From NCBI GenBank assembly GCA_046542845.1, contig JBKHAN010000002.1:15396-79395 (forward strand): a stretch of 64,000 nucleotides of DNA. The letters are read 5' to 3'. The position numbers and the translations under genes are program-made. The stretch is from Spirochaetaceae bacterium. Its GTDB lineage: Bacteria; Spirochaetota; Spirochaetia; DSM-27196; SKKC01. Within the stretch, counting starts at the first letter, position 1, and each line of letters opens with the position of its first letter. Below, in pieces: positions 6,001 through 24,363 of this stretch. A model generated the notes under the pieces. It was not told the origin of the DNA, did no database searches, and worked only from the letters and a program-made list of their open reading frames with translations.

Positions 6001-6939
6001 GGCTGCCGAAAGCCGCTCATCCGCAGCGCTTCGGCGAGCCCGTATCGCTTGTGCCTCCGCGTCGGCTGCAACGGCGCGCTGCCGTTCGAAGGCCTCCCGC
6101 TGCTGTTCATGCCACATCGTTTCATTCGATACGAGCTCGCGAAACGACTCTTCCCAGGTCTGCCGCTGACCGGAGAGCCGGGAAAAGGCGTTCTGCCACG
6201 TCGCTCGCTCCGTCGAATACGCGGCATGCGTCGCTTCCTCCCACCGGAGACGTTCGGCGAGCAGGTCGGCTTCGGCTTCGTTCCACAGACCCTGAGCTTC
6301 GGCCACTGCCGCTGCGTAGCTTTCGTGGTCGGACGACCGCGGACCGTCCGGACGGCCGGTAACCGCAGGACGAACCGACGAAGAAGATTCGAAGAGCCAC
6401 GGCGCGTTGAGATACGATGCTGTCTCCAGGGGGGAGTTTCTCTCGGTAATGCGTCTGAGGCTTTCATGATCATATTTCCGTCTCGAGGTCACACGAGCCG
6501 ACTCAAGCTCTATGACGGTCTCAAGAGCGGGAACCTGACGACGGGCGTTGTCCCAGATCGCTTCGCGTTCTTCATGGTCTGAGTCTGCGTCGAGGCTGTC
6601 GACGCGACGCAGAGCGTCAAAGAGTCGCAGGCTTTCAAGTCCCGGCTCCCGCGTCGTTTCCCGGCTGTCACGCCAGCTGCGAAACGCTTCGTGCAGATAC
6701 GCGTCGAGATCCGCCTCCAGCTGTGCAGATGACTCCTGCGGCAGCCGGGAATGGCGGATGGCATAATCCCTTGCGGACGAGCCGTAGCTCCACCATTCTT
6801 CCTCGGTATTCGCGCGGGATGCGCGATCGAGGTACTCGTCAAGGTCCTGTCCGGGAATCGCATCGAGAGTCGTCGCGGCAAGCCCGAAAACAAGCGCCGC
6901 CGCGGCGTGTGAGAACCGTCTGCGTTCGGTCGTCGGCAT
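1..6939 (-). CDS. Giant hypothetical protein with a signal peptide, rich in Glu/Ala/Arg/Leu. At least 2,313 aa are visible and the C-terminus lies beyond base 1. It is not in the supplied ORF track.
   Basis: Manual minus-strand translation from ATG 6939-6937 stays open through every codon down to base 1. AAGGAGG lies at 6950-6944 and there is an in-frame TGA upstream at 7008-7006. The last visible residues are ...VELSQHELTVSELLLFRMAE at 60-1. The track lists no minus-strand ORF in this frame (end coordinate divisible by 3) anywhere in 1-6962, as expected for an ORF with no stop in the window. Every ORF the track does list there is a short Arg/Ser/Pro-rich off-frame product. The N-terminus MPTTERRRFSHAAAALVFGLAATTLDAIPGQD looks like a Sec signal. 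A hydrophobic stretch TLTAIGMGFYFSGLASFFSPPLMATLML lies at about 3171-3085, and a Gly/Ala/Ser-rich hydrophobic region at about 1185-640. Confidence 0.85.
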   Translation of the reverse strand, partial: MPTTERRRFSHAAAALVFGLAATTLDAIPGQDLDEYLDRASRANTEEEWWSYGSSARDYAIRHSRLPQESSAQLEADLDAYLHEAFRSWRDSRETTREPGLESLRLFDALRRVDSLDADSDHEEREAIWDNARRQVPALETVIELESARVTSRRKYDHESLRRITERNSPLETASYLNAPWLFESSSSVRPAVTGRPDGPRSSDHESYAAAVAEAQGLWNEAEADLLAERLRWEEATHAAYSTERATWQNAFSRLSGQRQTWEESFRELVSNETMWHEQQREAFERQRAVAADAEAQAIRARRSAADERLSAAVNLYRSSRAAERTARTAAELWTSLDRPESAAERDYWEQEAERHAGIAADTAHAMDRFVNEYHGDAGYGPESREIARAEYAIDRAEEELAVWEHVRDYARTESPNRETAAETAENLLYASEAASRASATVHELSAEMRELSARIESLRTEQRSFADLVRETDLEITELNERQRAYLGRLDAPGEELLERLAADAVAAWTGFTGGGDAVDDADALLDVLIGVMEREHDAERFLYFGERQEALEEHSRAVFDQLGGDSAESASRAFAAGDTETALRSIRASAQTDSATYLLSEAASDYPHAARVLRDMLRASILEVSVFADALDPYAGEPESNADTFARLELQRIRSQLSLELERARFVEDTAADETELSVEARILLHGATGAEDAAYGSGDVLRVAAWIDELLDGLPEDAASSEAGDALEEALSRMEREDPTILHAISSASVARELSAHAIDGWRDANARTSARNAALRYEYLEQYVLTPARIESARERVSALPAGDDLHAFLDAGLHHELDPEMDSVPVLQEQYLRTTQALLEAGSTASAGSDESLRVYRREREVLNGMVSALQPYDGVTTPAGSAGELFAAAEELLERSAEGYAEEAELRSEYDRLYSNLMVRRSQLQEALQHDPEEAAAELHEMNHRIEQIRDERASIVRQWEGQLEMLSDEIRVLETVQSSLEDAIDEEEAARHAYTIARSVDVYARSFSLTPEDVEMRYDQAVSALAAAHDELEELHVVERDTERFAEYTDLATGRLEAEYLLREVHELTRDIHEETEDVSREMQVARDGVFRSPESDALGDRHDWFLRVADRLQEDGSTLLNRFSLAMYAEAYGDYEAGRNGSESGFMTPERIVSPVLHDALTRGGAFRSPTDLGAYILEEGQAALAHIEADQELRSLYRSYRAYREESALQGDHLLSEIEYLSAPATVVAHAMDRSSELARRSRRSSRTLTAIGMGFYFSGLASFFSPPLMATLMLRSTVELSLAAAAGRAAGSYEELHDDLSALGFAQEYRESVADIEAEFRAYASLSSRHAELESRREALTRGGLSDLPHIIASSPGSRGGAESFAVSLVERTADNPRVRLNDATHDLFSELQRVSLAFRRDEDAFLEAAAQDTGNRDPAGLKRALLDAYERFPQELPFHHQSLSEERIATLHEYYRRRLDERDEYDRAAFRERTDLMRDGLAAAARQRHAQLKEVEDRGRQAWQDAGDELVSRYADVLQDRAHAYERTAAEYELRHEQLLELRRGWTRDAEGHESPDRLVREILSRAVPPVVRSHTESRDGALHELVDDLSPAYTLSRVLRAARENLSLHDAAANRDHEDLFDRTSVAAGRPFATVSEVEILRHVQETRSRGDDETARRLSLVHSGHVISELNGIRNEAMHMVDSANAAVAESIHRTFTRAGFRREADSYVRDTLVGNTMQGSTRERHRIRPYRAFRDFRFDLPSGTSLHSLAASGSVAVSQRVAAAQQSVATELERIFGSDAERSGGGRVDPDAATVLRRSLERGWLAELIDYGDEEEVLHRDQAATLMPGAFGAHVGYAPELFPRVDTALGWRGNIAFRGRGELHSLYGPFMYYQSLQGLGYGELQQGFHNVRLWDAENAFSISDVLHVGAGVAGGFMSAGASLALSLGTSTLTSALDVVSGEADASEAALRSLTNAASVGIGSLGGSAGSRITGAIGRGWGGELASTAGELAITNTGRSAVYALGTNGFSTERFLRGIAGPDTIARTAGRISGSLLTGDLNGFSAADRGAASAVAGGVGSAVEFGLQHGLTGSATLNVLNFADLTQIAGIQGFRTGASAGLAELNVGGTAAGIRLGSGGIDASARRFQVLASGLPVYAEQLKIAAHALSRTTVFAPDYEGTRSVGTALRSLYSFGSEAGERLYSDVLSGAVTLSVGTATGTVVAERVRDATADVVHLASLGDRGVDPAARASRLFAGLALEHESHRDGRVRSQQSQVAETVNAVRSRLDMADRMMADYGVELSQHELTVSELLLFRMAE

Positions 6940-6980
6940 GGCACCTCCTTCTGACAGTACATACACAGCGAACACTCGTT

Positions 6981-7009
6981 TTGATTGGCGGAAATTTCTT
7001 TTCAATCAA
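6981..7009. promoter_or_regulatory. Inverted repeat TTGATTG-N15-CAATCAA in the 108-bp divergent intergenic region; candidate operator
   Basis: TTGATTG at 6981-6987 and its exact reverse complement CAATCAA at 7003-7009. The repeat sits between the giant ORF start (6939) and the TolC-like start (7048), and the spacer is AT-rich. No regulator gene is visible in the window. Confidence 0.3.
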
Positions 7010-7047
7010 CCTTCGGATCAGCCGTGTACATAGCGTCGGAGGGTCCC

Positions 7048-8448
7048 ATGCACGTACGAACGATTCTTGCGCCGGGAGTGCTTCTCGCGAGCCTGTCGAC
7101 CGGACTCATTTTAAGCCCTGTCGAAGCGGCTCAAGCGGAAGCGCTCTCAAACGCCGTCATCATTACACGTACGGCCGACGCGCTTGAGCTTGCGCGTGAA
7201 CACGACATCGCGATCGAATACTACCGTAGCGAAGAAGCGTTCGTCCGGCGCAACCTCGATGACCTGACCCGCATACGCCTGCCTGAGATACAGGGTTCGA
7301 TCGCGAGCAGCAGGAACCGGGTGCAGAACCAGGCTGATGCACACAGCGTTGAACTGCAGGTCGGCGCATCACTGCCACTGTACGACGGGGGACGTCGTGA
7401 CGCTCAACGGAACGCGGTGAGCGCTGAACTTGGCCTGCGTGCCATCGGGCGGGAAGAACACGAGTCACAGCGAACGGCCTCGGTTGTGGAACTCCTCGCA
7501 AGCTATGAGTTTGCTGTGCAGGCGGCACGAATCGGGGAGCAGCACTACCGCCGGTCGCAGGTCGAACTCGACGCGCGTTTGCGCGATCACGAGCTGGGAC
7601 TGCTTACCGGCTACGAGCTTCAGGTCATGGAGCTGTCGGTAGAACGGGCGGCGATCGAAGTCGCGCAGCGCAGCAATACCGCAGAGGATCTTCACAGCAG
7701 ATTGAGGATCATGCTGGGTGTCGAAGAACCCGTCGCGCTTACGATACATCCGACGATCAGGCCCGGCAGCGATCCGCCTTCGATACGAAACGGTTTCGGG
7801 GTACTTCTTTCCGAAGCACTCGGATCCGATCCGACCATACAGCGTCTGCGCTTCGAGCGCGACAGAACCTCCGCGCTGCGCGACGCGATGCCTTCAGCGC
7901 TCACACCGGTCGTCGAGGGAACCGCCGGTGTGTCCATGAGAGGTGAGCCTCTGCCGCTTGCCTCGCCTGCGCTGCGCTTCGAGTTGCGCTTCTCGTGGCC
8001 GGGGCTCCGTAGCGGATATCTGGGATTCGGCGGTGGTCTCGCATTCGACACGGGGAACACCGCCTCGCGAAGGCTGAGCGTACAGACCGGCTCGTCAACG
8101 CGGGTTCAGTCCGAGGCTGCCCTGACACGTCGTCGCGTGGATGCCGGGCAGGCGCAGGAGGCGCTTGAGCGTGGTGAACACGAACTCGCGAGCTGGATAC
8201 GCAGAGCGCTGCGTGACTACACGCATCTGGGCACCGTTCGCGACACGGACCTGGAGGCGATTGCCCTTGCCGAGCTTGTCGTCGCGCGTACACGCCGCGA
8301 GGCCGAAGACGGACACAGTCGTTCGACCGCAGTTCTCGAAGCAGAATACCAGCACGCTCAGGCACAGCTGGCCGAACTTGAGACGACGTTTCAGATGGTA
8401 CGGCTGTACCAGCAGCTTCAGGTCCGCACGGGACTCGCACAGCCATGA
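7048..8448 (+). CDS. Outer membrane efflux protein (TolC/OEP family)
   Basis: Track ORF 6985-8448 (TTG start) trimmed to ATG 7048, with GGAGG at 7038-7042. Signal peptide MHVRTILAPGVLLASLSTGLILSPVEAAQA. OEP-like helical repeats with the LPLYDGGRRDAQRNA motif. The stop overlaps the next start (ATGA, 8445-8448). Confidence 0.8.
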   Translation: MHVRTILAPGVLLASLSTGLILSPVEAAQAEALSNAVIITRTADALELAREHDIAIEYYRSEEAFVRRNLDDLTRIRLPEIQGSIASSRNRVQNQADAHSVELQVGASLPLYDGGRRDAQRNAVSAELGLRAIGREEHESQRTASVVELLASYEFAVQAARIGEQHYRRSQVELDARLRDHELGLLTGYELQVMELSVERAAIEVAQRSNTAEDLHSRLRIMLGVEEPVALTIHPTIRPGSDPPSIRNGFGVLLSEALGSDPTIQRLRFERDRTSALRDAMPSALTPVVEGTAGVSMRGEPLPLASPALRFELRFSWPGLRSGYLGFGGGLAFDTGNTASRRLSVQTGSSTRVQSEAALTRRRVDAGQAQEALERGEHELASWIRRALRDYTHLGTVRDTDLEAIALAELVVARTRREAEDGHSRSTAVLEAEYQHAQAQLAELETTFQMVRLYQQLQVRTGLAQP

Positions 8449-9788
8449 AGCGTCTGGTTCTCGCCTCTGCGCTGCTCTCAGGCGCGTGTACCGCAACCCC
8501 GCACACGACCTCCGGGCCCGAGGAGATTCGACGCGTTCACGTCGGCGAACTGCGGCCGGAGCAGGTCGAGGAGACGATACCCGTTTTCGGGACGCTCGTG
8601 CCGCGGCAGGAAATACGTGTCAGCGCGCCGTCGTCCGGAACCGTCGCCGGGATCGAGGTCGAGGAGGGAGCCACGGCGAGTCGCGGCGTTCTTCTCGTAC
8701 GCATACAGAACGAACAGATTTCCGCTCGCAGGCGTCAGGTCTCCGGCGAGGTGTCTGCCGCCGCGCATGCCGTGCAGCTGGCGAAAGCGAGGATTGACGC
8801 GACGCGCAGGAACATCTTGCAGCGTGTCACACGGCTTGGAGGACTCGCGCACGCGACGGAGCTCGAACGAATCGAGTACGAGCGTGCGGCGGAGCGACTC
8901 CGGCAGGCGGACCAACGTCTGGAATCCGGTGGTATCTCGCCTGAAGAGCACGCGTCCTTCGCTCATGCTTCTTCCACCGCGGAGCTTCACCTGCGCATCG
9001 CGGAGAACGAGCAAGCGGTACTCGCCGCCGAGCTTGGTGCAGACACACAGGCGGGAGCGCTCGATGTCGCAAGCCGGATGTACGTCGAGGAAATTCTGTC
9101 GCACAACCTCCATATGGTACGTGCACAGCTCGCCTCCGAGGAAGCACGCCTTCGCGTAGCAGTCGCCGAGCAGGACGCAGTTGTCGATCTCCATGAATCG
9201 CTGTCGGTACGCGCCCCGGGCAATGGTCGCATAGCGCGCGTTCACGTCGAGTCCGGTGAACGGGTAGAACCGGGGACCCTGCTGCTCACGCTGCACGGCA
9301 CGTCTACTCCCGATCTGAATGTTCGGCTTCACGAGTCAGGCCTTCAACAGATTCGCATAGGTTCCAGGGTTGCGGTAACCATTCCGGCAGTCTCAGCGGA
9401 GCTGCGAAGCGCTGAAGTGCGACGCATCGGGGTGGCTGCTGATCCACGTTCGGGGTCGGTGTCCGTACTGATTCGGCTGCACGGGACCGCAGCCGAGTTG
9501 CGACCGGGTATGTACGCAGAAGCGAGCATACACGCGGAACGCGCGAGAAGCGGGATCCATATTCCGGCTTCAGCCATGCGCGAGCACGAAGCGGACCGAG
9601 CCTCGGTCTGGGTACTCGCGGCAGACCGTGTGTTTCCCCGGGAGATCTCAGTCTCTGAAGCGCGTAGGGATGGCAGCTATCGCCTCCTGAGCGGTCTCGA
9701 GGAAGGGGAGATCATAGTCCTGGAGAACCATTCCGGACTGCGCCCGGGAGAACACGTTCATGCGGTGTTCGAAACAGAGGAGGATTAA
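8445..9788 (+). CDS. Periplasmic adaptor (membrane fusion protein, HlyD/RND-MFP family); probable lipoprotein
   Basis: N-terminus MKRLVLASALLSGAC has a relaxed lipobox. Two lipoyl-like half motifs are present: IRVSAPSSGTVAGIEVEEGATASRGVLLVRI and LSVRAPGNGRIARVHVESGERVEPGTLLLTL. They flank a long helical hairpin, which is typical of MFPs. Confidence 0.8.
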   Translation: MKRLVLASALLSGACTATPHTTSGPEEIRRVHVGELRPEQVEETIPVFGTLVPRQEIRVSAPSSGTVAGIEVEEGATASRGVLLVRIQNEQISARRRQVSGEVSAAAHAVQLAKARIDATRRNILQRVTRLGGLAHATELERIEYERAAERLRQADQRLESGGISPEEHASFAHASSTAELHLRIAENEQAVLAAELGADTQAGALDVASRMYVEEILSHNLHMVRAQLASEEARLRVAVAEQDAVVDLHESLSVRAPGNGRIARVHVESGERVEPGTLLLTLHGTSTPDLNVRLHESGLQQIRIGSRVAVTIPAVSAELRSAEVRRIGVAADPRSGSVSVLIRLHGTAAELRPGMYAEASIHAERARSGIHIPASAMREHEADRASVWVLAADRVFPREISVSEARRDGSYRLLSGLEEGEIIVLENHSGLRPGEHVHAVFETEED

Positions 9789-9789
9789 C

Positions 9790-11190
9790 ATGAAGCCGTT
9801 CGGTGTCTGGATAGTACCGCTGTGCGCTTTCCTTACGAGTAGCTGTGCCGTCGTCGACTTTACTCAGCTTCACGTCGAGATCGACCCGGGAGAACGGTAC
9901 AGCGTTGTATCGCCGGACTCCGGTGTGTCACTGCGCTTCTCTCACGGCGTTGACCGCGACCAGGCCGAAGACCTCGTCCGCGTGGTCGCACGGAGCCGCA
10001 CCGTCGCGCACGCGATGACCTGGGAAGGAAGAACGCTTACGATTACACCCGTCGAGCCACCCGAGGCGGGGACGGTACACGAGCTTCAGATACAGGGAAT
10101 CGTTCGCGATACACGCGGACGAGCGCACACCGTCGCGGTTCTTCATCACCTGTTCTACGGTTCCGATGCACCGACGGCGCATCTTGTATCGAGCAACCCG
10201 GCCGACGGAGTTCTCGCCGGGAACGCTGGTCAGATAGGTCTCCAGTTCAGTATGGCCATGAACGGACCGAGCGTCGAAGAAGCGGTCCGTATAGTCCCCG
10301 CGGTGGACGTACGGTTTGACTGGAACGAAGCAGGCGACACCCTGAGTATTGTACCTCGCAACGCCTGGAACAGCGCACAGACCTACGACGTACTGATAGA
10401 ACCCACCGCGCGCAGTCGAGCCGGAACCGGACTCGCAGGGTCGATACGCCGTTATTTCCGCTACGATGTCTCAGCGGTCCCGCTCGAAGTGAGGGGCCAT
10501 CGCTTCGAAATGGCTGCCGGCGAGCCCGGACAGACCGTTCCGGTACCGGAGGGTCGTGACCCGGTCATTCTGACCTTTTCTGCTCCCGTGGGCCACATGG
10601 ATGTACAGCAAGCCGTCCGCGTTCGCCCCGCTTTGTCCCTGGAGACACGACAGCACTCTGCCGCCGAAGTGAGCCTGCATCCGCGCGATACCTACGAACC
10701 GGATACCGACTACCACATACTCATTCCTCCGGGGCTTGAGGACAACCGGGGAAACATACTGCGAGAAGCCTACTCGCTCTCGTTTCACACTCCCGATCGC
10801 AGAGCCGCTCTGGAGTCGGTTCGATTGATCTGGCCTGACGGTGACGTGCAGATTACAGATTTTGATGGTACCGGTGTTCACGCCGTCGCGCCGACCGGCC
10901 CTGACTACCTGCTTCATGCGGTCATGGCCTTCGATCGCGTTGTCGAAATCGGAACGCCCCGGCAGAACATGCTCGACACTCTCGGTGTGGAGCGGGTCGT
11001 CCCCGAGGGCGGGACTCCGATCGTGCTCGATCAGTTTGTCTGGACATCGGACGGTCGTGAACTGACCACGGTGTGGTCCGGGGTCACTCCGTCTGGTTTC
11101 ACCGACGCGCATGCCTTGTACCGACTGTCGCTACCCGATTCCCGGGAACGACAGGCCGTCGAGCTGACCCTTTCGCACGAGGCGCGCTGA
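9790..11190 (+). CDS. Lipoprotein with about three SbsA/Big_5-like Ig-fold domains
   Basis: Track ORF 9760 trimmed to ATG 9790, with GGAGGA upstream and only 1 nt after the MFP stop. Lipobox LTSSC. Recurrent Big_5-like pattern: SPDSGVSLRFSHGVDRDQAEDLVRVV..., NPADGVLAGNAGQIGLQFSMAMNGPSVEEAVRIVPA..., DPVILTFSAPVGHMDVQQAVRVRPA...DNRGNIL. Confidence 0.75.
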   Translation: MKPFGVWIVPLCAFLTSSCAVVDFTQLHVEIDPGERYSVVSPDSGVSLRFSHGVDRDQAEDLVRVVARSRTVAHAMTWEGRTLTITPVEPPEAGTVHELQIQGIVRDTRGRAHTVAVLHHLFYGSDAPTAHLVSSNPADGVLAGNAGQIGLQFSMAMNGPSVEEAVRIVPAVDVRFDWNEAGDTLSIVPRNAWNSAQTYDVLIEPTARSRAGTGLAGSIRRYFRYDVSAVPLEVRGHRFEMAAGEPGQTVPVPEGRDPVILTFSAPVGHMDVQQAVRVRPALSLETRQHSAAEVSLHPRDTYEPDTDYHILIPPGLEDNRGNILREAYSLSFHTPDRRAALESVRLIWPDGDVQITDFDGTGVHAVAPTGPDYLLHAVMAFDRVVEIGTPRQNMLDTLGVERVVPEGGTPIVLDQFVWTSDGRELTTVWSGVTPSGFTDAHALYRLSLPDSRERQAVELTLSHEAR

Positions 11191-12635
11191 TGAAGGTACC
11201 GAAGCGTCTGCTGTGGAACTTCGTGAGCGCCATGCTGCTCCAGGCGGTGTTCGGATGCAGGCTTTTTCCCATGGCCCCGCTCGAGGTTGTGCGCGTATGG
11301 CTCGACAGCCCACAGCGGATATCGGTCGAGTTTTCCGCGCCTCCCGACCCGGCACGTTTTGAAGCTGCGGTGCTCCTTCAAAAGAACGATCGGACTGTGC
11401 ACGGGCGCGTTTCTGTGGAAGGCGTCGCTGCACACTTTTACCCGGATGAGCCGGTCGACAGACGCCACCCGTACCGGTTCACCGTTTCGACTGTCGCCGA
11501 GGATATGCACGGAAACACGCTGCGACGACCCCTGGCGCACGAGTTCGGTCCACAGCCGGACGACTCGCCTCTTCGCGTCGCGGCAGCAGCGACGCGCCCG
11601 CACACCGTCACCCTTTCATTTTCTGAAGCCGTCGCGCCGGACGCGTTGTACGGACATCTGCAAATTGCACCCGACCGCCGGTACAGAATCGAGTTTGCAG
11701 ACAGAGGGCGAACGGCTCACGTTGTGTTTCTTTCACCGGATGCTCCGGAAAACGAACACAGCCTGCGTGTGATGCAGGGATTAACCGGTGCCCGGGGTGG
11801 TGTACTTCCGGCAGCATTCGAGTACCGCTCCCCTGAAATCGACGTCACCGAGTCGACACAGGAGGTCACGCTGCACTTCCATGAACCGGGCTTTGACACT
11901 ACATCGATCACCCCGGTAGCCGGGTATACGGAACCCGACCTCTTACCGACATACGAGCACTACGGAAGGTCTACGACCGTAGAAATCGAGTTCGCCGAAG
12001 CGGTACGCGCCGCAGACGTCGAGCAGGCGATACGGATATCTCCCGAGGTACCGGTGACCATTACCACGGGTGCGGGTACGCACGTGCACGAGGCTCGTGT
12101 GGACCTCGGGGGGCCACTCGACGCGGGAACCCTGTACCGGATCGAAATCGGGACGAGGGTGCGTGACCGCGAGGGCAGGTTCTTGCCGCACGTGCTGTTC
12201 GCCGGCATAAAGCCGCTTGAGCATGAGTTTCAGCCGCTTCAGGTGGAGGAGATTCGATTCGACGGCGAGGTGCTCGTCGACGGGGGAACGCTCGACCTCG
12301 GAGGGTTCGTTCCGCACACCGACATACAGTTCGCCGAGATCGAGATTGCGCTGGCCCATGGCGCAGGGGCGACGGTCAGTTCCGTCGATGTAGCTCGCGC
12401 CTTCCGCATATATGCCTGGGCCAACTCCGCGCGCTTCAGGCTCATTTCGCTTACCCGAACGACCGAGTCACAGACTGAAACCCGCTTTCGGCTCCGGCTC
12501 GAGGTCACAGATGAAGCAGGACGCTTCGGCATCGTCTCGGTTTATCTGCTTCAGGAGCTTACCGATTCTCTCGGAAACGAGCTGGAGCAGGACTGGCGCG
12601 TGGATCTGAACCAGATCGGAGGGCCGAAACCGTGA
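11190..12635 (+). CDS. Second lipoprotein with about three SbsA/Big_5-like Ig-fold domains
   Basis: Track ORF 11073 trimmed to ATG 11190, which shares one base with the upstream TGA (TGATG). Lipobox AVFGC. Big_5-like pattern: QRISVEFSAPPDPARFEAAVLL...EDMHGNTL, HTVTLSFSEAVAPDALYGHLQIAP, TTVEIEFAEAVRAADVEQAIRISP...RDREGRFL. Confidence 0.75.
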   Translation: MKVPKRLLWNFVSAMLLQAVFGCRLFPMAPLEVVRVWLDSPQRISVEFSAPPDPARFEAAVLLQKNDRTVHGRVSVEGVAAHFYPDEPVDRRHPYRFTVSTVAEDMHGNTLRRPLAHEFGPQPDDSPLRVAAAATRPHTVTLSFSEAVAPDALYGHLQIAPDRRYRIEFADRGRTAHVVFLSPDAPENEHSLRVMQGLTGARGGVLPAAFEYRSPEIDVTESTQEVTLHFHEPGFDTTSITPVAGYTEPDLLPTYEHYGRSTTVEIEFAEAVRAADVEQAIRISPEVPVTITTGAGTHVHEARVDLGGPLDAGTLYRIEIGTRVRDREGRFLPHVLFAGIKPLEHEFQPLQVEEIRFDGEVLVDGGTLDLGGFVPHTDIQFAEIEIALAHGAGATVSSVDVARAFRIYAWANSARFRLISLTRTTESQTETRFRLRLEVTDEAGRFGIVSVYLLQELTDSLGNELEQDWRVDLNQIGGPKP

Positions 12636-15556
12636 GGCGAATCATCGACTGGGCGCAGACGCACCCGGTGGCAGTATTGACCACGATGGTGATCGTTGTC
12701 CTCATCGCAATCGTGAACGCCGGCAGCATGCCGGTGACCTTCATGCCGGAGGTCGAGCGGCCGGTTTTCATTGTCCGCACCGAACTCCCCGGATTGCCGT
12801 CAGCTGAGGTGGTGGACCTTTTGACCCGCCCCGTCGAACGAGCGCTCTCGGGCATCGGCGGTGTCGCTGCGATCAGAAGTACAACCCGTGCGGGTGTTTC
12901 GGCGGTTGAAGTTCGGTTTCACGCAGGGGTGTCCCGCGAGCACGCACGAGCCGAAGTACGGCAGGTGGCCGACCGGGTCTACCCCGGTCTGCCGGATGCG
13001 GCGGATCGTCCCTCGGTCCTGTCGGTTCCCGTGTTTCGCGAACCGGCTGCGATTATCGCGGTGCTTCCCGGAAGGACTCGCCTCGGCGAGCTCCAGCGGC
13101 TCGCCGACCGGCAGCTCCGCTCACAGCTTCAGCAGCTCCCGGGGACCGGCACGATTACCGTAACAGGCGGCGAGCGCGCGGAAGTGCACGTACGCGTCGA
13201 TCCTCACCGCATAGCCGCGAAGGGTGTCGCCTTCGGGCATGTTTCCGGCGCGATCGAGACGTCGGTGTTTGAACACGCGGTCGGGACGATACAGATCGGT
13301 GAGCGCGAACTGAGCGTCGTGACGGACGCGGCTGTCGCGACGGTGGATGCGCTCGGCGGTTTACCCGTCGCCGGAGAACCGGGAGATCATCCTGTTCTTC
13401 TCCGTGATGTGGCGGTGATCGAAGCCGGTGTTTCCGAACAACAGTCGATGTTCAGCTACCAGGGAGAGGAAGCTGTCGGAATATCGATCTACGCGCGTCC
13501 GGGACACAGCCCTCCTGAGGTGGCACGACGCGTCGTTGCGTTCGTAAGTGCGTACAACGCCGGAAACACCGGCGATGTACGGCTGGTCATTGCTGCCGAC
13601 GGCGCGGAGCCCCTGAGAAACGCCGTGCAGGATATTGTCATATCGGGATTACTCGGAAGCGTATGCGCATTCTGCGTCATTATCATGTTTTCGCGCAGTC
13701 CGGTACTTGCGCTACCTGTGGTCTGCTCCATACCCGCGTCTCTTGCGCTTACGCTGTTGCTGCTGCAGCAGTCCGGGCTGGGCGTCAACCTGATGAGTCT
13801 CAGCGGGTTGCTCGTTGCCATCGGAATGATCGTTGACAACAGCATAGTCGTCGCGGAGAATCTCGCGCTCAAACCGGACAGGCCCGGTGAGGCAGTCCAT
13901 GAAGTTGCCGCCGCCGGTGTCTCGGGAACAGCAACAACAATCGTGGTGTTTATCCCACTCGCCGGCCTGCCCGGTCTGCTTGGAAGCATCTACCGCGATC
14001 TGGTGATCACAGTGGCTCTCGCACTGGTGTCAAGCTACATCGTGTCGCTGTTACTCGTTCCCACACTCAGGGCTCTCTTCCCTGCAGCCGCTCCTCCCGG
14101 AACGCGCGAAGACGCCTGGACATCGCGCTTCGCCGGCTCCCTCGTAAGCAGGCGCGGCACGACCGGGTTCGCATCGCTCGCGATGCTGGGGATTGCGATC
14201 GGGGGCAGCTTCCTGGTGTCATGCTCGCCGACAGAAGCGCTCGACTCGGGTACAATCTCCGTCCGAACGCGAACCGATGCGAACAGCCCCTTTGCATCTG
14301 TGCGCGCACAGGCTCTCGCGCTTGAAGCCCTCATTGCCGCTCACGAGTCGGTACGGGATGTACATTCGCTGATCGGCGGAGAGCCCGACGATCCGGTGTT
14401 CCTCAGCACTATAGATCTTGAACCGCGTGAGATCCGATCGACGGTACGCGTGCGCGAGGGCTCATCGGTCTTCGATGTGGTGTCCGACCTGGGTCGCGTC
14501 TTCGCGCGCGCCGGAATAGACGCGTCGATAACGGTCGCCCGGTCACCGCTCGCCCGCATCGTTCACGGCGAACTGAGCAGAGGGGAAGCAGTCGGCGGGG
14601 CAACCGTAGCCGAGGCAACTGAAGCCGCCCACACCATCCTCGCGCAGTACAATCCGGACATGCCCGGGCGCGCCCGCGCAGCGGCAATCGTACCATCGGC
14701 CTCCAGCACCAGCGTATACGTTCGCCCTCGTATGCCCACGCTTCAGCGTTACGGGATGAACGCAGCCGATGTCACGCGGCTTCTGTACGCGCAGACCACC
14801 GGGATCGTCACGGGAAGCATACATACCGCAGGTGTTCGAAACGATGTCCGGGTGTTCTTTGGTTCCGACGCCGAACGAAGCGCCGCTGAGGACCTTGTAC
14901 TCGTGAGCGGGACGGGGGACCTTACCTCGCTGTCGCAGATCGCTGATCTCGAGCGCGTCGATGCGCTATTGACCAGGATACGGGTAAACCAGACAGACAC
15001 GGTATACCTCAGTGCGGGCTTCGGACCTGAGGTTCCAGCGCCGTCGCTTTCGCGTTCTGATCTGTACCGGTTGTATCTGGTCTTCGCGGGTGCGGCTGCT
15101 ATCCTCTTTCTCGTGCTCGTGTTCCATTTCAACCAGATTACTCACGCACTCGCCATAATGTGCATAATCCCTGTCTCCTGGGCAGGAGCCCTGTGCGCAC
15201 TTACGGTCACGGGTCGGGTTCTGACGCTCGAGTCGGGGGTCGGTCTTCTTATACTGACCGGGTTGACCGTCAATCCCGGAATCATCCTTATCGAGACCTA
15301 TGAAGCCTTGCGTCGGAGGGGGCACATACTGCGGGATGCGATTCATGACGGCACGGCGCGCAGGCTGCGTCCCGTTCTCATGACGGGCATAACAACCGTC
15401 GCAGCGCTGGTCCCGCTTGCGATCGATCCCGGGCTCCAATCGATGCAGAGCAATACAGCCATTGTCGTTATAGGAGGGATCAGCGCCGGTACCATCGCAA
15501 CGCTGACCGTCATTCCGCGCCTCTACCTCCGTTCGTGCGGGAACGGCCTCTCGTGA
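12632..15556 (+). CDS. RND efflux permease (AcrB/AcrD/AcrF family), 974 aa
   Basis: GTG 12632 overlaps the upstream stop (GTGA), with GGAGGG at 12619-12624. Canonical RND landmarks are present. The N-terminus reads MRRIIDWAQTHPVAVLTTMVIVVLIAIV...PEVERPVFIVRTELPG, TM4 reads AIGMIVDNSIVVAEN, TM10 reads GLLILTGLTVNPGIILIE, and RRLRPVLMT is also found. Confidence 0.92.
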   Translation: MRRIIDWAQTHPVAVLTTMVIVVLIAIVNAGSMPVTFMPEVERPVFIVRTELPGLPSAEVVDLLTRPVERALSGIGGVAAIRSTTRAGVSAVEVRFHAGVSREHARAEVRQVADRVYPGLPDAADRPSVLSVPVFREPAAIIAVLPGRTRLGELQRLADRQLRSQLQQLPGTGTITVTGGERAEVHVRVDPHRIAAKGVAFGHVSGAIETSVFEHAVGTIQIGERELSVVTDAAVATVDALGGLPVAGEPGDHPVLLRDVAVIEAGVSEQQSMFSYQGEEAVGISIYARPGHSPPEVARRVVAFVSAYNAGNTGDVRLVIAADGAEPLRNAVQDIVISGLLGSVCAFCVIIMFSRSPVLALPVVCSIPASLALTLLLLQQSGLGVNLMSLSGLLVAIGMIVDNSIVVAENLALKPDRPGEAVHEVAAAGVSGTATTIVVFIPLAGLPGLLGSIYRDLVITVALALVSSYIVSLLLVPTLRALFPAAAPPGTREDAWTSRFAGSLVSRRGTTGFASLAMLGIAIGGSFLVSCSPTEALDSGTISVRTRTDANSPFASVRAQALALEALIAAHESVRDVHSLIGGEPDDPVFLSTIDLEPREIRSTVRVREGSSVFDVVSDLGRVFARAGIDASITVARSPLARIVHGELSRGEAVGGATVAEATEAAHTILAQYNPDMPGRARAAAIVPSASSTSVYVRPRMPTLQRYGMNAADVTRLLYAQTTGIVTGSIHTAGVRNDVRVFFGSDAERSAAEDLVLVSGTGDLTSLSQIADLERVDALLTRIRVNQTDTVYLSAGFGPEVPAPSLSRSDLYRLYLVFAGAAAILFLVLVFHFNQITHALAIMCIIPVSWAGALCALTVTGRVLTLESGVGLLILTGLTVNPGIILIETYEALRRRGHILRDAIHDGTARRLRPVLMTGITTVAALVPLAIDPGLQSMQSNTAIVVIGGISAGTIATLTVIPRLYLRSCGNGLS

Positions 15557-18162
15557 CTCCGTTTCGTGCACGCATCCTGCTGTGTGTTCTGCCGGGCTTC
15601 GCATGGATCATGTCGGCGATATCGCCGCCGACGGTATCGCAGACCTACGATACGCGTATCCGTGTCGTGCTCCTGCGTCGCGATACAAGTGCGGAGATCC
15701 TTGCGACGGAGGTTCTTCCTGCGTTCGACCGGATACTTCGCGAATTGAGCGCGCTTGAGCACAGCAGAAGCACCACCGAAACGGGGAGAATCACGCTTGA
15801 TCTGTACCTGAAGCGGGACGCGGACCCCGCTGCCGTGGCTGCACAGGTGAGGGAAGCTGCCTACCGTATATACGAGGGTATAGGCGGTCGTCTCGAACGC
15901 CCGCAGGTCCACATTGCCGGTGATCGTTCCGAGTACATGTCTGTGTGGTCTCTTTTCACCGACGGTGGAGGCTCTCCGGACAGGCAGTCCGTTGAAGACC
16001 GGCTCGTGTGGCAGATTGAACGGGTACAGGGCGTCGCCCGTGTGGACGTTTTTGGAGGCTCCCGCGAAGAGATATACGTCTCGGTTCCGACTGGTCTCTT
16101 GAGGACATATGCTTTGACGCCGCAGGACGTAAGCGCCGGCCTGCGACTGGGCGAATTGATCGCTTCGGTCGGACGGCTCGACGATGGTCTGAACCGGACG
16201 GCGCTGGTGTACGACAGCAGAGCCCGCACTCTCGCGGAAATCGCCTCAAACACCCTTTCCCAGGTACACAATATGCGTCACGCCGGTCTGCCCGGCGGCA
16301 CGACACGGCTCGTGGCGAGCGTACCGGATCGTATTGTGCGTATGGACGGGCTTGAACATATACACCTGGGCGTTGTTGCCGACGGTACGCGATCGATCAC
16401 CGCTATGTCCCGCGAGCTCACGCAGCTGTTCAACGAGTCGAACCTGTCTCCCGGAGTCACCGCGACACCGGTCTTCGACGGCGGAGCGATCGAACGGTCA
16501 AACATGCGAAGGGACGTTCTGTTCTACACTTCGGCGCTCGCGAGCTTTCTCCTGTGTCTCCTGATCCTCGGGAACACCGTTCTCAGGACGGGGCAGACCG
16601 CACTCTCGATCCTGTGTGCCTTCGCGCTCGTTCAGGCCGTAACTGCCACCCCGCTTGCGTCGTGCACAAGCCCGGATCTTCTGCCGCATACGGCGACCGG
16701 GCTGTTCATCGCCACGGTCACCCTGCACAGCGGTCTCCTTCGGCTTGAGGTGTTTTCTCTCGGGCTGACCCTGGCTCTGTCACTTCTGCTGCAGGATCCC
16801 GCGTGGGCGTGCGTACTTCGGGTGTATCTGCTCGCGCATGGCGCGATGCGCATCACCTGGCCTCTTTCACAGCGTGCCGTGTACGCTCGTCGGGAAGCAT
16901 CAGCGGGAACACGCTGGATCAGCGCTACCCCCCTGCTTTTATTGCTTCTCACCCTACCCGTGCCGGTGTTCCTGATACTGGTCGACAACGCGGAGCTTAT
17001 AGAGGATCTGCACCTCGATATAGATGCCTACGCTTCAGCGGAGGCGGCCGACTCTGAGCTTCAAGCGGCCGCGGCCCACTTCAGGCGTACGCTGTCACCG
17101 ACATTCGTGCAGACGCAGGCACGAAGGGGATCAGGGTCGCTCCGCGCGGGTTTTCACCCGCATACCGACCGGAACGAGGTCATGCAGGCTATACAGGCCT
17201 TCAACAGCCTCGAGCGACGGGGGCGCCTCATTCCCCGCGCCGACGAACTGCCGGGTACCGTACATCGGGTACCGATGTACGCGACGGCTCCAACAGCCGA
17301 AACAGCGCACGCGACCGCGCGTCTCGCTGCGCGCGAGGCAGGCGACGCTGTCCTTCACTTTCGCGAGGATAGCGAGCGTGTCGTGCTGCGACCTCACCGA
17401 ATCGCCGCGCATACGCTCGGAGTAGACCTTGGCCAGGCAACGCTTCTGCTGCAATCGATTATCTCACCGGCGGTGCATCACAAGCGTATCGTTTCAGGGC
17501 GCGAGACAGACGTCCGCGTCGAGATACGCCCACCAACCACCATACCGCCGCCCTCAGGATCAACCGTGCACATCGAATCCCTGCTCGACACGGCATCGGT
17601 TACGTCGCTCACGGGCGATGCTGTACCGTTGTCCTCGGCATTCTACCCGTCCCGTGAGCGAAGACCCGACGTGCTGACCCACGCAGACCGCAACCCGTCG
17701 GCCCACTTCAGTCTCTTCGTGGCCGCGCCGTCGATGCGCGAGGCGGTACAAAGGGCAGAACAGGCAGTGTCCAGGGTCACGCTCCCGCGTGGAGGACGGC
17801 TGCGCTACGACCCCACATCGGCATCCGCTCACGCCACGACATATGTGCATCCTCCAGCCGTGCTTCTGTCGCTGTACGCGTCGGTGGTATTCCTCCTCGC
17901 CGCGTGCGTAGAGGAATCCTGGAGTGAGGGCCTGAAATCAGTCGTGTATACGGGAATTCTTGTCGCAAGCATGTCGATAGCCGTGCCTGTCATAAGTCAG
18001 TGGGACAGCATCGAGATTGCCGGGTATCCGGGTATGGCCCTGCTCAGCGCGGTGACGGTGCTGAGGTTGCGACACATGCATGTGGGCGCCGTAATCGAGG
18101 CTGCGCGTCAGCGTCTTCGCATTTCTTCGCGCTGCCGGGCGATACGCTGCATCTTTCGATAG
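15535..18162 (+). CDS. Degenerate RND-like membrane protein, 875 aa. It has porter-like periplasmic domains but lacks the transmembrane motifs of active pumps.
   Basis: Start is GTG 15535, or alternatively GTG 15553, which would give a GTGA overlap with the RND stop. The porter-domain-like motif IERVQGVARVDVFGGSREEIYVSVPTGLLRTYALTPQDVSAGL is present. There are three hydrophobic clusters (N-terminal, central, C-terminal). I found no VDD/VDN..EN or RLRPxLMT motif. Confidence 0.7.
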   Translation: MRERPLVTPFRARILLCVLPGFAWIMSAISPPTVSQTYDTRIRVVLLRRDTSAEILATEVLPAFDRILRELSALEHSRSTTETGRITLDLYLKRDADPAAVAAQVREAAYRIYEGIGGRLERPQVHIAGDRSEYMSVWSLFTDGGGSPDRQSVEDRLVWQIERVQGVARVDVFGGSREEIYVSVPTGLLRTYALTPQDVSAGLRLGELIASVGRLDDGLNRTALVYDSRARTLAEIASNTLSQVHNMRHAGLPGGTTRLVASVPDRIVRMDGLEHIHLGVVADGTRSITAMSRELTQLFNESNLSPGVTATPVFDGGAIERSNMRRDVLFYTSALASFLLCLLILGNTVLRTGQTALSILCAFALVQAVTATPLASCTSPDLLPHTATGLFIATVTLHSGLLRLEVFSLGLTLALSLLLQDPAWACVLRVYLLAHGAMRITWPLSQRAVYARREASAGTRWISATPLLLLLLTLPVPVFLILVDNAELIEDLHLDIDAYASAEAADSELQAAAAHFRRTLSPTFVQTQARRGSGSLRAGFHPHTDRNEVMQAIQAFNSLERRGRLIPRADELPGTVHRVPMYATAPTAETAHATARLAAREAGDAVLHFREDSERVVLRPHRIAAHTLGVDLGQATLLLQSIISPAVHHKRIVSGRETDVRVEIRPPTTIPPPSGSTVHIESLLDTASVTSLTGDAVPLSSAFYPSRERRPDVLTHADRNPSAHFSLFVAAPSMREAVQRAEQAVSRVTLPRGGRLRYDPTSASAHATTYVHPPAVLLSLYASVVFLLAACVEESWSEGLKSVVYTGILVASMSIAVPVISQWDSIEIAGYPGMALLSAVTVLRLRHMHVGAVIEAARQRLRISSRCRAIRCIFR

Positions 18163-22748: not shown

Positions 22749-24363
22749 AAACCGGGGGCATTTCCAGCAAAGTGACCGGCGCTACGCTCAGGTCGACCTC
22801 GGTGTCCGTGCTCGACCACTCCGCGTGAAAGTCAGACTGGGTCAGCCCCACGGGGTGCCGAACGGTCCGAGAGGACGGCAGAAGGCGCACCGCTGTCTGA
22901 GCTCCGGCGCTGAGCTCGAGGCGTCGCGAATCAATTCGTCCAAACCCTGAAATGATGCCGGTCTGCGGGTCCTCCGGCGAATCAAAAAAATGCTCGTCTG
23001 CTCCGGCCTCCGCGGCGGGATCCGCCGGGGCCCATCCGGCACCGGGTATCAGGAACTCGACCCAGCTGTAAAACGGCAGCTCGCCGGCCTCCGTCATACG
23101 AACGCCGTGTACTACCCGCGCGGGAACACGGCTGAGCCGCAGGAGGCCGACCATGTAACGCGCGATCGCCTGCGAGTTTCCCTGCCCCTGTTCGAGGGCC
23201 GCATCGACCCCCGCCGGCCCGTCGATATCGAAACTCAGGCTCTCGACGACGGTGTTGAACGCACGTCGTGCGGATGTCAGCGGGTCATTCGATGAGGCGA
23301 CATTGCGCGCCGTTGCGGTGACGCGTTCGGTCGTCATACCGTATTGCGGGTCTTCGGCGGTGTACCGCTCGTATATTGGGGATGCCCGGTTATACTCTCT
23401 CCGTACCTGTGACGGATTGAATTCGAACTCTACTGACGTCCGGGACGCGAGAATCGTCTGCCGGACGCCAAGCCGCGACGCAGCTGTATTTCGCCACTCA
23501 AAAAGAAGCATGTCCCGCTCACGGGCAAGCTCGTCCGGCGAGTACGAACTGACCACCTCAAACGAGCCCTGCATTTGCCGTGGTCGAGGGGACGGCCACC
23601 AGAGCCAGAGACCGGCAGGAAGCTGTTCGGCGCCTGTGGATAATCGCGCGAATAGTTCAACCGCGAATGATACGGGCTCGCCGTACCGACGGGTGACGCC
23701 GGGCGTTCTGATCGCAACGTCCCCAGGGACGCGCCGTTCATCAATAAACTCGACAGACACGGGCCCGGACGCGGCTCCATCGGGAACTCGAACCCGGATT
23801 TCCCTGTCCGTCCACAGCTCGACCTCGTCGTTATCCACGGGAACCGGAACCCCCGCGGCCCCGGTAAAGACGACGGGGCGGCGGTGGCGTGCATTACCGA
23901 GAAAACGGCCCTCTATGACGAGGACATCTCCGACCGTCAGCGTATCGGAAGACAGATCGTCGAACTCGGGTCTGTCGACGCGGTCAGACGAGTGCTGCCG
24001 GGGTATATCGTCCCGATTCCGGACAAGGAGGCCGCTACTCTCCCTGCGATCGGTATGCACGACAAGCAGCCCGGACTCGGAAAAGTCGGGTACCCGGACC
24101 CGTATGCGGGTATCAGTCCACTCAAGATAGCCGGAGGCGGTGATACGACGCCCCGCGATGGATATAGACGACTGTCCTCGCCGCTCACCAAAGTTATCGC
24201 CCGTGATCGTCAGCACGTCACCGTCGCTGTACTCGCGTGGAGTCACATCTTCGACGCTGGGCGTGCGCTCGGTGAAGACCAGCAGCAGCAGGAGAGCGGC
24301 CAGCACCGTGAAAAACAGAAGGAAGACCACGAGGAAGGTGCGAGTGGAGCGAGACGTCTGCAT
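22717..24363 (-). CDS. Membrane-anchored protein with two IPT/TIG-like domains and a C-terminal transglutaminase-like domain whose catalytic triad is substituted
   Basis: N-terminal [26 protein letters not shown]-like segments: [17 protein letters not shown]...[16 protein letters not shown] and [13 protein letters not shown]...[18 protein letters not shown]. The transglutaminase-core-like stretch is [26 protein letters not shown]...[19 protein letters not shown]. Confidence 0.75.

What the first reader, a model, noticed from the sequence alone, without database searches (positions are those of the whole stretch)
6940..18162. Six-gene translationally coupled efflux-like operon with two Ig-fold lipoproteins inserted between the adaptor and the pump
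The gene order is TolC-like OMF, MFP, Big_5-lipoprotein-1, Big_5-lipoprotein-2, RND permease, degenerate RND-like protein.

Every junction is overlapping or nearly so:
- ATGA at 8445-8448
- stop plus 1 nt at 9788/9790
- TGATG at 11188-11192
- GTGA at 12632-12635
- GTGA possible at 15553-15556

This tight coupling suggests fixed-stoichiometry co-production. Canonical tripartite RND systems need only OMF, MFP and RND.

Two paralogous lipoproteins of about 470-480 aa are hard-wired into the operon, each built from about three SbsA/Big_5-like Ig domains. With the second, motif-poor RND-like protein, this is not an architecture I know as described.

It could be a periplasm-spanning export or assembly machine for an envelope component rather than a drug pump. 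The divergent giant secreted protein next door is an obvious candidate partner or cargo, but that link is pure inference.
Basis: partly seen in the sequence, partly recalled or inferred. Interest (0 to 1): 0.8.

Follow-up and report, generated by a model that had tools for sequence, protein, structure and literature searches.

The report
Giant-protein-linked RND envelope module of spirochaetes
A tightly packed six-gene pump-like operon with two extra Ig-fold lipoproteins and an energy-dead second pump subunit sits next to a giant exported protein, and because that layout recurs in three distantly related spirochaete lineages it is probably an undescribed cell-envelope machine rather than an ordinary drug pump.

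Summary
Six + strand genes run from 7048 to 18162: OMF, long-hairpin MFP lipoprotein, two tandem-Ig (Big_5) lipoproteins, an RND permease and a degenerate RND paralog. Every junction overlaps or is 1 nt apart. A giant Sec-signal ORF (2610 aa in full) diverges 108 nt upstream.

New findings:
- The organism is a soda-lake Spirochaetaceae MAG.
- All seven genes are under purifying selection but evolve fast (dN/dS 0.19-0.31, against 0.007-0.06 in flanking genes, at equal dS).
- The RND pair descends from MdtBC-like paired RNDs. The second copy lost the TM4 Asp motif by deletion, and its constraint now lies in the periplasmic loops.
- LP1 and LP2 are separate, ancient orthologous groups, not recent paralogs.
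- The giant belongs to an orphan Spirochaetales family (252 representatives, no Pfam domain).
- In two further deeply diverged lineages (GC 61% and 42%) a giant homolog again diverges from OMF-MFP-LP1-LP2-RND. Three other giants lack the operon nearby.

No annotation or paper describes this. Most likely it is a heteromeric RND-type trans-envelope machine working with the giant protein. The substrate and mechanism are inferred.

The parts
1..6939 (-). Giant exported protein, N-terminal 2313 of 2610 aa. It has a Sec-type signal peptide, an acidic alpha-helical variable middle, a conserved core at aa ~1450-2310 with a G/S/A/T-rich hydrophobic stretch, and only 0.2% Lys.
   Evidence: Stop-free frame and translation. 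No Pfam, NCBIfam or PDB sequence match. 43% identity to the L001 ortholog over 2313 aa. Orphan family of 252 representatives. dN/dS 0.21-0.24.
6940..7047 (.). 108-nt divergent intergenic region. It holds an inverted repeat, TTGATTG (6981-6987) and CAATCAA (7003-7009), a conserved GTGTACATAG (7024-7033), and the RBS GGAGG (7038-7042).
   Evidence: 75% mean column identity across 5 clade members, although the flanking proteins are ~40% identical. No sigma-70 consensus match was found in it.
7048..8448 (+). Outer-membrane factor (TolC-like), 466 aa, with a signal peptide. Very divergent.
   Evidence: PF02321 OEP at 30 bits, above the cut-off of 22. 5 of 5 orthologs hit OEP. A profile search found no PDB sequence match.
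8445..9788 (+). Membrane-fusion (adaptor) lipoprotein, 447 aa. About 167 aa lie between the two lipoyl half-motifs (aa 88-254), which I read as a long alpha-hairpin.
   Evidence: TIGR01730 RND_mfp 1.8e-43; HlyD_D23; lipoyl halves at aa 56-87 and 255-283. Conserved lipobox Cys.
9790..11190 (+). LP1: lipoprotein of 466 aa with three Big_5 Ig-like domains and a conserved C-terminal beta domain (PEGG..VL.QF.W..GRELTT.WSG).
   Evidence: Big_5 4.7e-24. AF2 model with pLDDT 68 shows 3 Ig domains plus a beta domain. Foldseek hits are Ldt BIg domains and the SbsC S-layer protein. Orthologs are L024 Big5a (E 6e-33) and L028 Big5a (E 5e-21).
11190..12635 (+). LP2: lipoprotein of 481 aa with Big_5 Ig-like domains and a C-terminal domain ending in W-R-x-x-L-N-Q.
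   Evidence: Big_5 4.1e-18. Orthologs are L024 Big5b (E 1e-25), L028 Big5b (E 5e-9) and the L010 C-terminal fragment (profile E 1.6e-5).
12632..15556 (+). RND permease, 974 aa, presumed to be the energised subunit. It has VDN in TM4, VNP in TM10 and RRLRP in TM11.
   Evidence: ACR_tran 3e-131. Best PDB sequence hit is MdtB, 1.8e-50. Its motifs match those of its subfamily. The TM bundles are its most conserved parts, 0.69 identity.
15553..18162 (+). RNDL: degenerate RND paralog, 869 aa. The TM4 GxxVD motif is deleted, few C-terminal TM segments remain, and the periplasmic loops are better conserved than the TM regions. Its 3' end overlaps the convergent cNMP-binding gene by 55 nt.
   Evidence: hhalign against RND gives 97.3% probability, colinear over aa 46-707. 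Deletion over TM4 relative to the L010 second RND. Hydropathy profile. Region identities are 0.5 for loops and 0.37 for TM. dN/dS 0.25-0.31.

Best explanation
This is a conserved spirochaetal envelope module. It is a heteromeric RND-type trans-envelope machine that is genetically, and probably functionally, tied to a giant Sec-exported protein.

Proposed working (inferred):
- The TolC-like OMF and the lipid-anchored adaptor, with its unusually long hairpin, form the periplasm-spanning duct.
- The inner-membrane unit descends from an MdtB2C-type pair. The first RND keeps the ion-coupling residues and supplies the energy.
- The second RND (RNDL) has lost its TM4 Asp. It survives as a periplasmic, non-energised protomer, used for substrate binding or docking.
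- LP1 and LP2 are dedicated, stoichiometrically co-produced tandem-Ig lipoproteins. They act as periplasmic struts or receptors, attached through their conserved C-terminal domains.
- The machine acts on the giant protein or for it: outer-membrane passage, anchoring, or export of something the giant needs.

Shown: the anatomy, the descent from paired RNDs, purifying selection on all seven genes, and recurrence of the whole layout in three deep lineages.

Inferred: complex formation, the roles of the LPs, and the nature of the substrate.
For: **Domains and coupling.**

**Paired-RND ancestry**
- The nearest non-clade RNDs sit in MFP-MFP-RND-RND loci (L011).
- The best PDB sequence hit is MdtB.
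- The outgroup L010 has LP2-RND-RND2, and RND2 keeps GLVVDSAIV.

**RNDL is alive but energy-dead**
- It is colinear with RND (hhalign 97.3%).
- The TM4 motif is deleted.
- Its loops are more conserved than its TM regions; the reverse holds for RND.
- dN/dS is 0.25-0.31, with intact ORFs in all clade members.

**Precedent.** In MdtB2C the proton relay of MdtB matters more than that of MdtC, and substrates bind mainly MdtC (PMC4338810).

**Unit with the giant**
- The divergent arrangement is kept in the window clade.
- It is also kept in L024 (GCA_046545955.1, GC 61%) and L028 (GC 42%, normal Lys).
- LP1 and LP2 orthology and order are preserved there, at RND identities of 32% and 26%.
- The giant and the operon share the same elevated dN/dS (0.19-0.31), against 0.007-0.06 in flanking genes at equal dS.
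- The shared intergenic region is conserved within the clade.
- All seven proteins are Lys-depleted, like other exported proteins of this alkaliphile.
Against: - Three of six giant lineages sampled (L025, L026, L027) have no such operon within 10 kb. The giant family therefore does not strictly require an adjacent copy.
- Only three linked lineages are known, and no co-occurrence statistics could be computed.
- Neither L024 nor L028 shows what follows the RND, so a second RND there is unverified.
- The RND carries the ordinary motifs of a large small-molecule-type RND subfamily.
- No physical interaction was tested. The RNDL structure model was unusable (pLDDT 49.8).
- The OMF is so divergent that it matches no solved TolC-family sequence.
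Confidence: 0.5

Rival explanations
1. It is an ordinary small-molecule efflux pump of the MdtABC type (for drugs, bile-like amphiphiles, metals or a metabolite) that has picked up lineage-specific accessory lipoproteins. The giant gene is a neighbour kept by shared regulation or by history, and is neither partner nor cargo.
For: The RND has the standard motifs of a large RND subfamily and strongly conserved TM bundles. Its closest relatives are plain paired-RND loci without Ig lipoproteins. Giants occur without the operon nearby. Known pumps do encode extra periplasmic parts inside the operon, such as CusF; this last point is from my own knowledge.
Against: The divergent giant-operon arrangement survives at 26-32% RND identity and across GC 42-62%. 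Synteny seldom lasts that long without functional linkage. The giant and the operon share the same unusual evolutionary rate. The adaptor has a hairpin of ~167 aa, long for an RND adaptor. In L024 and L028 a TPR lipoprotein and a small lipoprotein also belong to the operon.
Confidence: 0.25
2. It is a dedicated two-step secretion route for the giant protein. Sec exports the giant to the periplasm. The RND/RNDL unit, together with LP1, LP2 and the long-hairpin adaptor, then feeds it unfolded through the OMF, or anchors it there as LapA is anchored in LapE.
For: Giant gene next to OMF and MFP genes is the classical layout of T1SS adhesin loci (review PMC8277102; the rest from my own knowledge). 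The linkage is conserved. Nearly all giants examined have Sec signal peptides. The hairpin is long, as in T1SS and MacA adaptors. TPR lipoproteins lie next to giants in L024, L026 and L028. SecDF shows that an RND-superfamily protein can act on polypeptides (my own knowledge).
Against: No precedent for RND-driven protein export through an OMF turned up. The giant has no RTX or C-terminal T1SS-like signal that Pfam detects. A 2600-4000-aa chain would have to stay unfolded in the periplasm. Some giants lack the operon nearby.
Confidence: 0.17
3. It is a non-transporting structural complex: an envelope tether or spacer built from a decayed pump. In this reading the Ig lipoproteins, the long adaptor and the giant alpha-helical protein hold the outer membrane at a fixed distance in the wide spirochaetal periplasm.
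For: RNDL has lost its energy-coupling residues. The LPs are beads-on-a-string Ig proteins like S-layer and Ldt spacer domains. All parts evolve fast.
Against: The first RND keeps its TM4, TM10 and TM11 residues, and its TM bundles are its best conserved parts. That pattern argues for active ion-coupled cycling.
Confidence: 0.06

Closest known systems
MdtABC-TolC / MuxABC-OpmB (heteromeric paired-RND pumps)
   Same: Two adjacent, translationally coupled RND genes follow the adaptor gene(s). The best solved-structure sequence hit of the RND is MdtB, and the nearest non-clade relatives are MFP-MFP-RND-RND loci. In MdtB2C the two subunits divide labour, one for energy and one for substrate (PMC4338810).
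   Different: Here the second RND has deleted the TM4 Asp motif and has few C-terminal TM segments. Two Ig-fold lipoprotein genes sit between the adaptor and the RND. The OMF is encoded in the operon. A giant exported protein is linked.
CusCFBA (RND pump with an extra periplasmic protein encoded inside the operon)
   Same: An additional periplasmic component is hard-wired between the pump genes.
   Different: CusF is a small soluble metallochaperone. LP1 and LP2 are ~470-aa lipid-anchored tandem-Ig proteins. The weak CopC hits (LP2 25.5 bits, LP1 22.1 bits, no stretch passing on its own) probably reflect the shared Ig-like fold (my reading). No metal-RND (CusA/CzcA) signature scores best.
TriABC-OpmH (RND pump needing two different adaptors)
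   Same: It has more than one periplasmic lipoprotein partner per pump, giving an asymmetric assembly (PMC4338810).
   Different: TriA and TriB are both MFPs. LP1 and LP2 have no MFP domains.
LapA/LapBCE and SiiE/SiiCDF giant-adhesin type 1 secretion loci
   Same: A giant exported protein is encoded next to the OMF and adaptor genes, and the adaptor has a long hairpin.
   Different: The inner-membrane component here is an RND pair, not an ABC transporter. The giant has an N-terminal Sec signal, no RTX or BIg repeats, and no Pfam domain at all.
SecDF (RND-superfamily, ion-driven polypeptide-handling motor)
   Same: It is an RND-superfamily membrane protein whose periplasmic domains act on a Sec substrate. 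The RND gives a weak SecD_SecF_C hit (1.3e-4).
   Different: The architecture is different (12 TM split or fused, no OMF or MFP partners). The window RND is a clear ACR_tran-type protein.

Membership tests
Tripartite RND efflux system (OMF-MFP-RND) | RND permease: ACR_tran homology, 12-TM topology with two large periplasmic loops | tested here: met
   ACR_tran 3e-131. Hydropathy shows TM1, the TM2-6 bundle, TM7 and the TM8-12 bundle.
Tripartite RND efflux system (OMF-MFP-RND) | Ion-relay residues in TM4, TM10 and TM11 | tested here: met
   D402 in VDN, N881 in VNP and R911 are identical in type to the many subfamily members aligned (VDNS / VVNN / RLRP). This holds for RND only.
Tripartite RND efflux system (OMF-MFP-RND) | Periplasmic adaptor with lipoyl, beta-barrel and membrane-proximal domains | tested here: met
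   TIGR01730 148.7 bits, above the cut-off of 94.9; HlyD_D23; lipoyl halves.
Tripartite RND efflux system (OMF-MFP-RND) | TolC-family outer-membrane factor | tested here: met
   PF02321 above its gathering score in the window protein, and a hit (E <= 0.1) in all 5 orthologs. The match is weak: only one repeat is matched, there is no PDB sequence hit, and TIGR01844 scores far below its cut-off.
Tripartite RND efflux system (OMF-MFP-RND) | Demonstrated efflux of a small-molecule substrate | not testable with these tools
   This needs genetics or biochemistry.
MdtBC-type heteromeric RND pair | Two adjacent RND paralogs in one operon | tested here: met
   The GTGA overlap at 15553-15556. hhalign gives 97.3% probability, colinear. 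Relatives L011 and L010 also have RND-RND.
MdtBC-type heteromeric RND pair | Both subunits are full RND transporters with intact TM domains | tested here: not met
   RNDL lacks the TM4 GxxVD motif through a 25-column deletion. Only ~2-3 hydrophobic segments follow loop 2.
MdtBC-type heteromeric RND pair | Heterotrimer (B2C) formation | not testable with these tools
   No multimer prediction was available. The monomer model of RNDL was unusable.
Type 1 secretion system for giant adhesins | ABC transporter as the inner-membrane component | tested here: not met
   No ABC domain occurs in any of the six operon proteins.
Type 1 secretion system for giant adhesins | Substrate with a C-terminal signal or RTX repeats and no Sec signal | tested here: not met
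   The giant has an N-terminal signal peptide and no Pfam domains.
Big_5 (PF13205) bacterial Ig-like domain proteins | Big_5 domains above the gathering score | tested here: met
   LP1 85.6 bits and LP2 66.5 bits, against a cut-off of 23.6. The Ig-like fold is seen in the AF2 model and in Foldseek hits.
Cus-type metal RND with periplasmic chaperone | CusF/CopC-type metal-binding protein and HME-type RND | tested here: not met
   The CopC hits have no stretch that passes on its own. The RND scores best against the multidrug-type model NF033617, not CusA/CzcA.

The most novel reading that the evidence does not exclude
The module is a previously unknown protein-export route. A Sec-exported giant protein of 2600-4000 aa would be taken from the periplasm and threaded through, or anchored in, a TolC-like channel. 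The driver would be an ion-powered RND heteromer with one active and one energy-dead subunit, with two tandem-Ig lipoproteins and a long-hairpin adaptor guiding the chain. That would be an RND-powered analogue of type 1 secretion, specific to spirochaetes.
Probability: 0.17. Interest if true: 0.95.

Novelty: new variant of a known kind. Interest (0 to 1): 0.7.

Why it matters
- Tripartite RND systems are among the best studied bacterial machines. A conserved version with two dedicated Ig-fold lipoproteins and a pseudo-transporter subunit is not in the reviews or annotations I could search.
- The degenerate second RND is a natural experiment on the MdtB2C idea that one protomer supplies energy while another handles substrate.
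- The linkage gives a first functional handle on a large orphan family of giant spirochaetal proteins: 252 representatives, no known domain, all annotated as hypothetical.
- If the giant turns out to be the cargo, this would be a new secretion route. If not, it still defines new accessory components of efflux machinery in the unusual spirochaetal envelope.

Tried and rejected
1. **Foreign origin of the locus.** The region is 61-64% GC against 55-58% around it. I rejected horizontal transfer because GC3 is uniform (0.65-0.69), dS equals that of the flanks, and the excess GC follows from Lys-poor, Arg/Ala-rich composition.
2. **RNDL as a pseudogene.** Rejected. It is intact in all clade members, with dN/dS 0.25-0.31.
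3. **An unusual Na+-type relay in the RND (D-N in TM4, N in TM10).** Rejected as special. The same VDNS/VVNN motifs occur throughout its subfamily.
4. **Metal chaperone role for the LPs.** The CopC hits are only fold-level similarity.
5. **Genome-collection scan with the RND alignment.** It returned only the two known soda-lake MAGs.
6. **Metagenome scan.** It returned only generic RNDs at 24-34% identity, none with LP homologs.
7. **Word-indexed homolog search with LP1.** It found only 4 proteins. It missed the L024 and L028 orthologs later found through the giant, so the family is larger than that search suggested.
8. **AF2 model of RNDL.** pLDDT 49.8; not used.
9. **Promoter and terminator scans.** No more sites than in shuffled sequence.
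10. **Rfam.** No hits in the window.
11. **Giant protein against Pfam, NCBIfam and PDB sequences, including its C-terminal 310 aa.** Nothing found.
12. **The clade's intergenic inverted repeat in other lineages.** No clear counterpart in L028.
13. **TPR and small-lipoprotein genes of L024 and L028.** They have no homolog in the window.
Full report
**1. What is there**

The + strand between 7048 and 18162 carries six ORFs.

| Gene | Coordinates | Length | Main evidence |
|---|---|---|---|
| OMF | 7048-8448 | 466 aa | PF02321 OEP 7e-7; signal peptide |
| MFP | 8445-9788 | 447 aa | RND_mfp 1.8e-43; HlyD_D23 1.9e-18 |
| LP1 | 9790-11190 | 466 aa | Big_5 4.7e-24, three stretches |
| LP2 | 11190-12635 | 481 aa | Big_5 4.1e-18 |
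| RND | 12632-15556 | 974 aa | ACR_tran 3e-131 |
| RNDL | 15553-18162 | 869 aa | ACR_tran 1e-22, aa 40-242 only |

- MFP, LP1 and LP2 have lipobox cysteines that are conserved in all orthologs.
- A stop-free minus-strand frame starts at ATG 6939, 108 nt from the OMF start, and runs off the window. Its full length is 2610 aa (P0134).
- That protein has a signal-peptide-like N-terminus and no Pfam, NCBIfam or PDB sequence match.

**2. Organism and composition**

- Identical or near-identical proteins come from NCBI MAGs named 'Spirochaetaceae bacterium'.
- One related MAG, CSSed162cmB_249, appears by its name to belong to a Siberian soda-lake sediment study (PMC6704655); I did not check this in the paper. 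The other is DLM2.Bin42.
- The locus is 61-64% GC against 55-58% around it. GC3 is uniform at 0.65-0.69.
- The difference follows from amino-acid composition. The giant and all six operon proteins have 0-1% Lys and about 10% Arg, as do other exported proteins in the window. Cytoplasmic proteins have 2-7% Lys.
- Lys depletion is what I would expect of extracytoplasmic proteins in an alkaliphile (my own knowledge). It independently places all seven products outside the cytoplasm.

**3. Conservation and selection within the clade**

- Five further contigs carry the same layout: giant (-), OMF, MFP, Big_5, Big_5, RND, RNDL.
- On the contigs long enough to show them, the same flanking genes follow: a cNMP-binding gene, SHMT, an MCP, a transglutaminase, a sigma factor, CysS and MurB.
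- Between the window and the more distant members, the flanking proteins are 87-95% identical. The six operon proteins are 38-54% identical and the giant is 43%.
- Nei-Gojobori estimates show equal dS in the operon and its flanks (0.31-0.46 for L001 against L006).
- dN/dS is 0.19-0.31 for the six genes and 0.21-0.24 for the giant. It is 0.007-0.06 for the flanks.
- So the seven genes are as old as their surroundings, all are under purifying selection, and all evolve about ten times faster at the protein level. RNDL is not a pseudogene.
- The 108-nt intergenic region is much better conserved than the coding DNA, at 75% column identity. It holds the inverted repeat TTGATTG/CAATCAA.

**4. The RND pair**

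- The best solved-structure sequence hit for the RND is MdtB.
- The RND's TM4 VDN, TM10 VNP and TM11 RRLRP are the normal motifs of its large subfamily. Its TM bundles are its most conserved parts (0.69).
- RNDL is colinear with RND over both periplasmic loops (hhalign 97.3%).
- Relative to the second RND of the outgroup L010, which still has GLVVDSAIV, the clade's RNDL has a deletion exactly over that TM4 motif.
- RNDL has only a few hydrophobic segments after loop 2. Its loops (0.5) are better conserved than its TM region (0.37).
- The nearest non-clade relatives of the RND lie in MFP-MFP-RND-RND loci (L011).
- The pair is therefore a derived MdtBC-type heteromer in which the second subunit has given up energy coupling.
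- That matches the published division of labour in MdtB2C (PMC4338810).

**5. The lipoproteins**

- LP1 and LP2 are only 23% identical.
- An AF2 model of LP1 (pLDDT 68) shows three Ig-like domains and a C-terminal beta domain.
- Foldseek finds the Ig domains of L,D-transpeptidases, the SbsC S-layer protein and cadherins. This describes a fold and says nothing about function.
- NCBI calls them 'Ig-like domain-containing protein'.
- No LP homolog occurs in the generic RND loci examined.

**6. Beyond the clade: the key result**

- An exhaustive search with giant aa 1114-2313 found 252 representatives at E <= 1e-3. Most are 2000-4000 aa and share a core at aa ~1450-2310.
- The named members are all Spirochaetales 'hypothetical proteins'. 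None of the seven family members scanned has a significant Pfam domain; one gave only a sub-threshold hit.
- Gene neighbourhoods of five homologs were read:

| Locus | Giant homolog | Source and composition | Neighbourhood |
|---|---|---|---|
| L024 | 4074 aa | GCA_046545955.1, GC 61% | Diverges from TPR lipoprotein, small lipoprotein, OMF, MFP, Big_5, Big_5, RND |
| L028 | 3992 aa | GC 42%, normal Lys | Same layout as L024 |
| L025, L026, L027 | three further homologs | - | No such operon within 10 kb |

- BLAST shows LP1 matching the first Big_5 gene (E 6e-33 and 5e-21) and LP2 matching the second (E 1e-25 and 5e-9). RND identity is 32% and 26%.
- L010 is related to L024 (42% RND identity). 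It shows an LP2 C-terminus, then RND, then a second RND.
- Linkage and gene order that survive this much divergence are strong evidence for a functional unit, but not an obligatory one.

**7. Interpretation**

- The best-supported reading is a heteromeric RND-type trans-envelope machine with two dedicated Ig lipoproteins that works with or on the giant protein (confidence about 0.5).
- The rivals are: a plain efflux pump with a coincidental neighbour (0.25); a true RND-powered secretion route for the giant (0.17, the most novel reading); and a non-transporting tether (0.06).
- The long adaptor hairpin (~167 aa between the lipoyl halves) fits a protein-handling role. So do the TPR lipoproteins next to giants in L024, L026 and L028. 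Neither proves it.

**8. Novelty**

- Four literature searches and the held part (first 300,000 characters) of the main review of tripartite systems gave no description of Ig-lipoprotein accessory subunits, of a degenerate second RND, or of this spirochaetal module.
- I class it as a new variant of a known kind. There is a real chance that it is more than that.

Noticed in passing
window 6940-7047: The divergent intergenic region is far better conserved across the clade (75% column identity) than the adjacent coding DNA. It contains the inverted repeat TTGATTG (6981-6987) / CAATCAA (7003-7009) and a conserved GTGTACATAG (7024-7033). The repeat spacer is 15 nt in the window and L004, and 20 nt in L001 and L006.
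   Followed up: partly
window-wide; e.g. 22717-24363, 34277-37177, 37341-38660: Lys depletion (0-1% K, ~10% R) marks every predicted exported protein, while cytoplasmic proteins have 2-7% K. In this alkaliphile it works as a compositional flag for extracytoplasmic location, and it explains local GC peaks at uniform GC3.
   Followed up: partly
window 34277-37177 (-): A 966-aa, very acidic (20% D+E), Lys-free protein with FlgD_ig Ig-like domains, a weak CHU_C hit and a C-terminal OmpA domain. A divergent OmpA-domain gene lies next to it at 37341-38660.
   Followed up: no
window 25998-27437 (-) and 47176-48456 (-): Two genes for class-I cysteinyl-tRNA-synthetase-like proteins lie in one 64-kb window. 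The second has tRNA-synt_1e at 4e-73. The first is identified as CysS by synteny with annotated loci.
   Followed up: no
window 18108-18162: The 3' end of RNDL overlaps the convergent, highly conserved cNMP-binding gene by 55 nt (119 nt in L001). The RNDL C-terminus varies greatly in length between orthologs (808-916 aa).
   Followed up: partly
P0134 aa 2310-2610 (beyond the window start) and window 1-1170: The giant protein's last ~300 aa form a separate tail module found in only 10 of 150 family members. It contains a DYGC...H pattern that could be a Cys-His enzyme motif, but no Pfam or PDB match supports this.
   Followed up: partly
L026 19284-27200; L027 13807-14715: In L026 a second giant gene (6219 aa) lies about 2 kb downstream of the first giant homolog. 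In L027 the giant is followed by a 302-aa protein with a NADase_transloc (PF25302) hit.
   Followed up: no
L024 8496-9856; L028 8598-9725: In both distant lineages the operon begins with a ~210-250-aa TPR lipoprotein and a ~160-200-aa lipoprotein ahead of the OMF gene. Neither has a homolog in the window, so the soda-lake clade has either lost them or keeps them elsewhere.
   Followed up: partly
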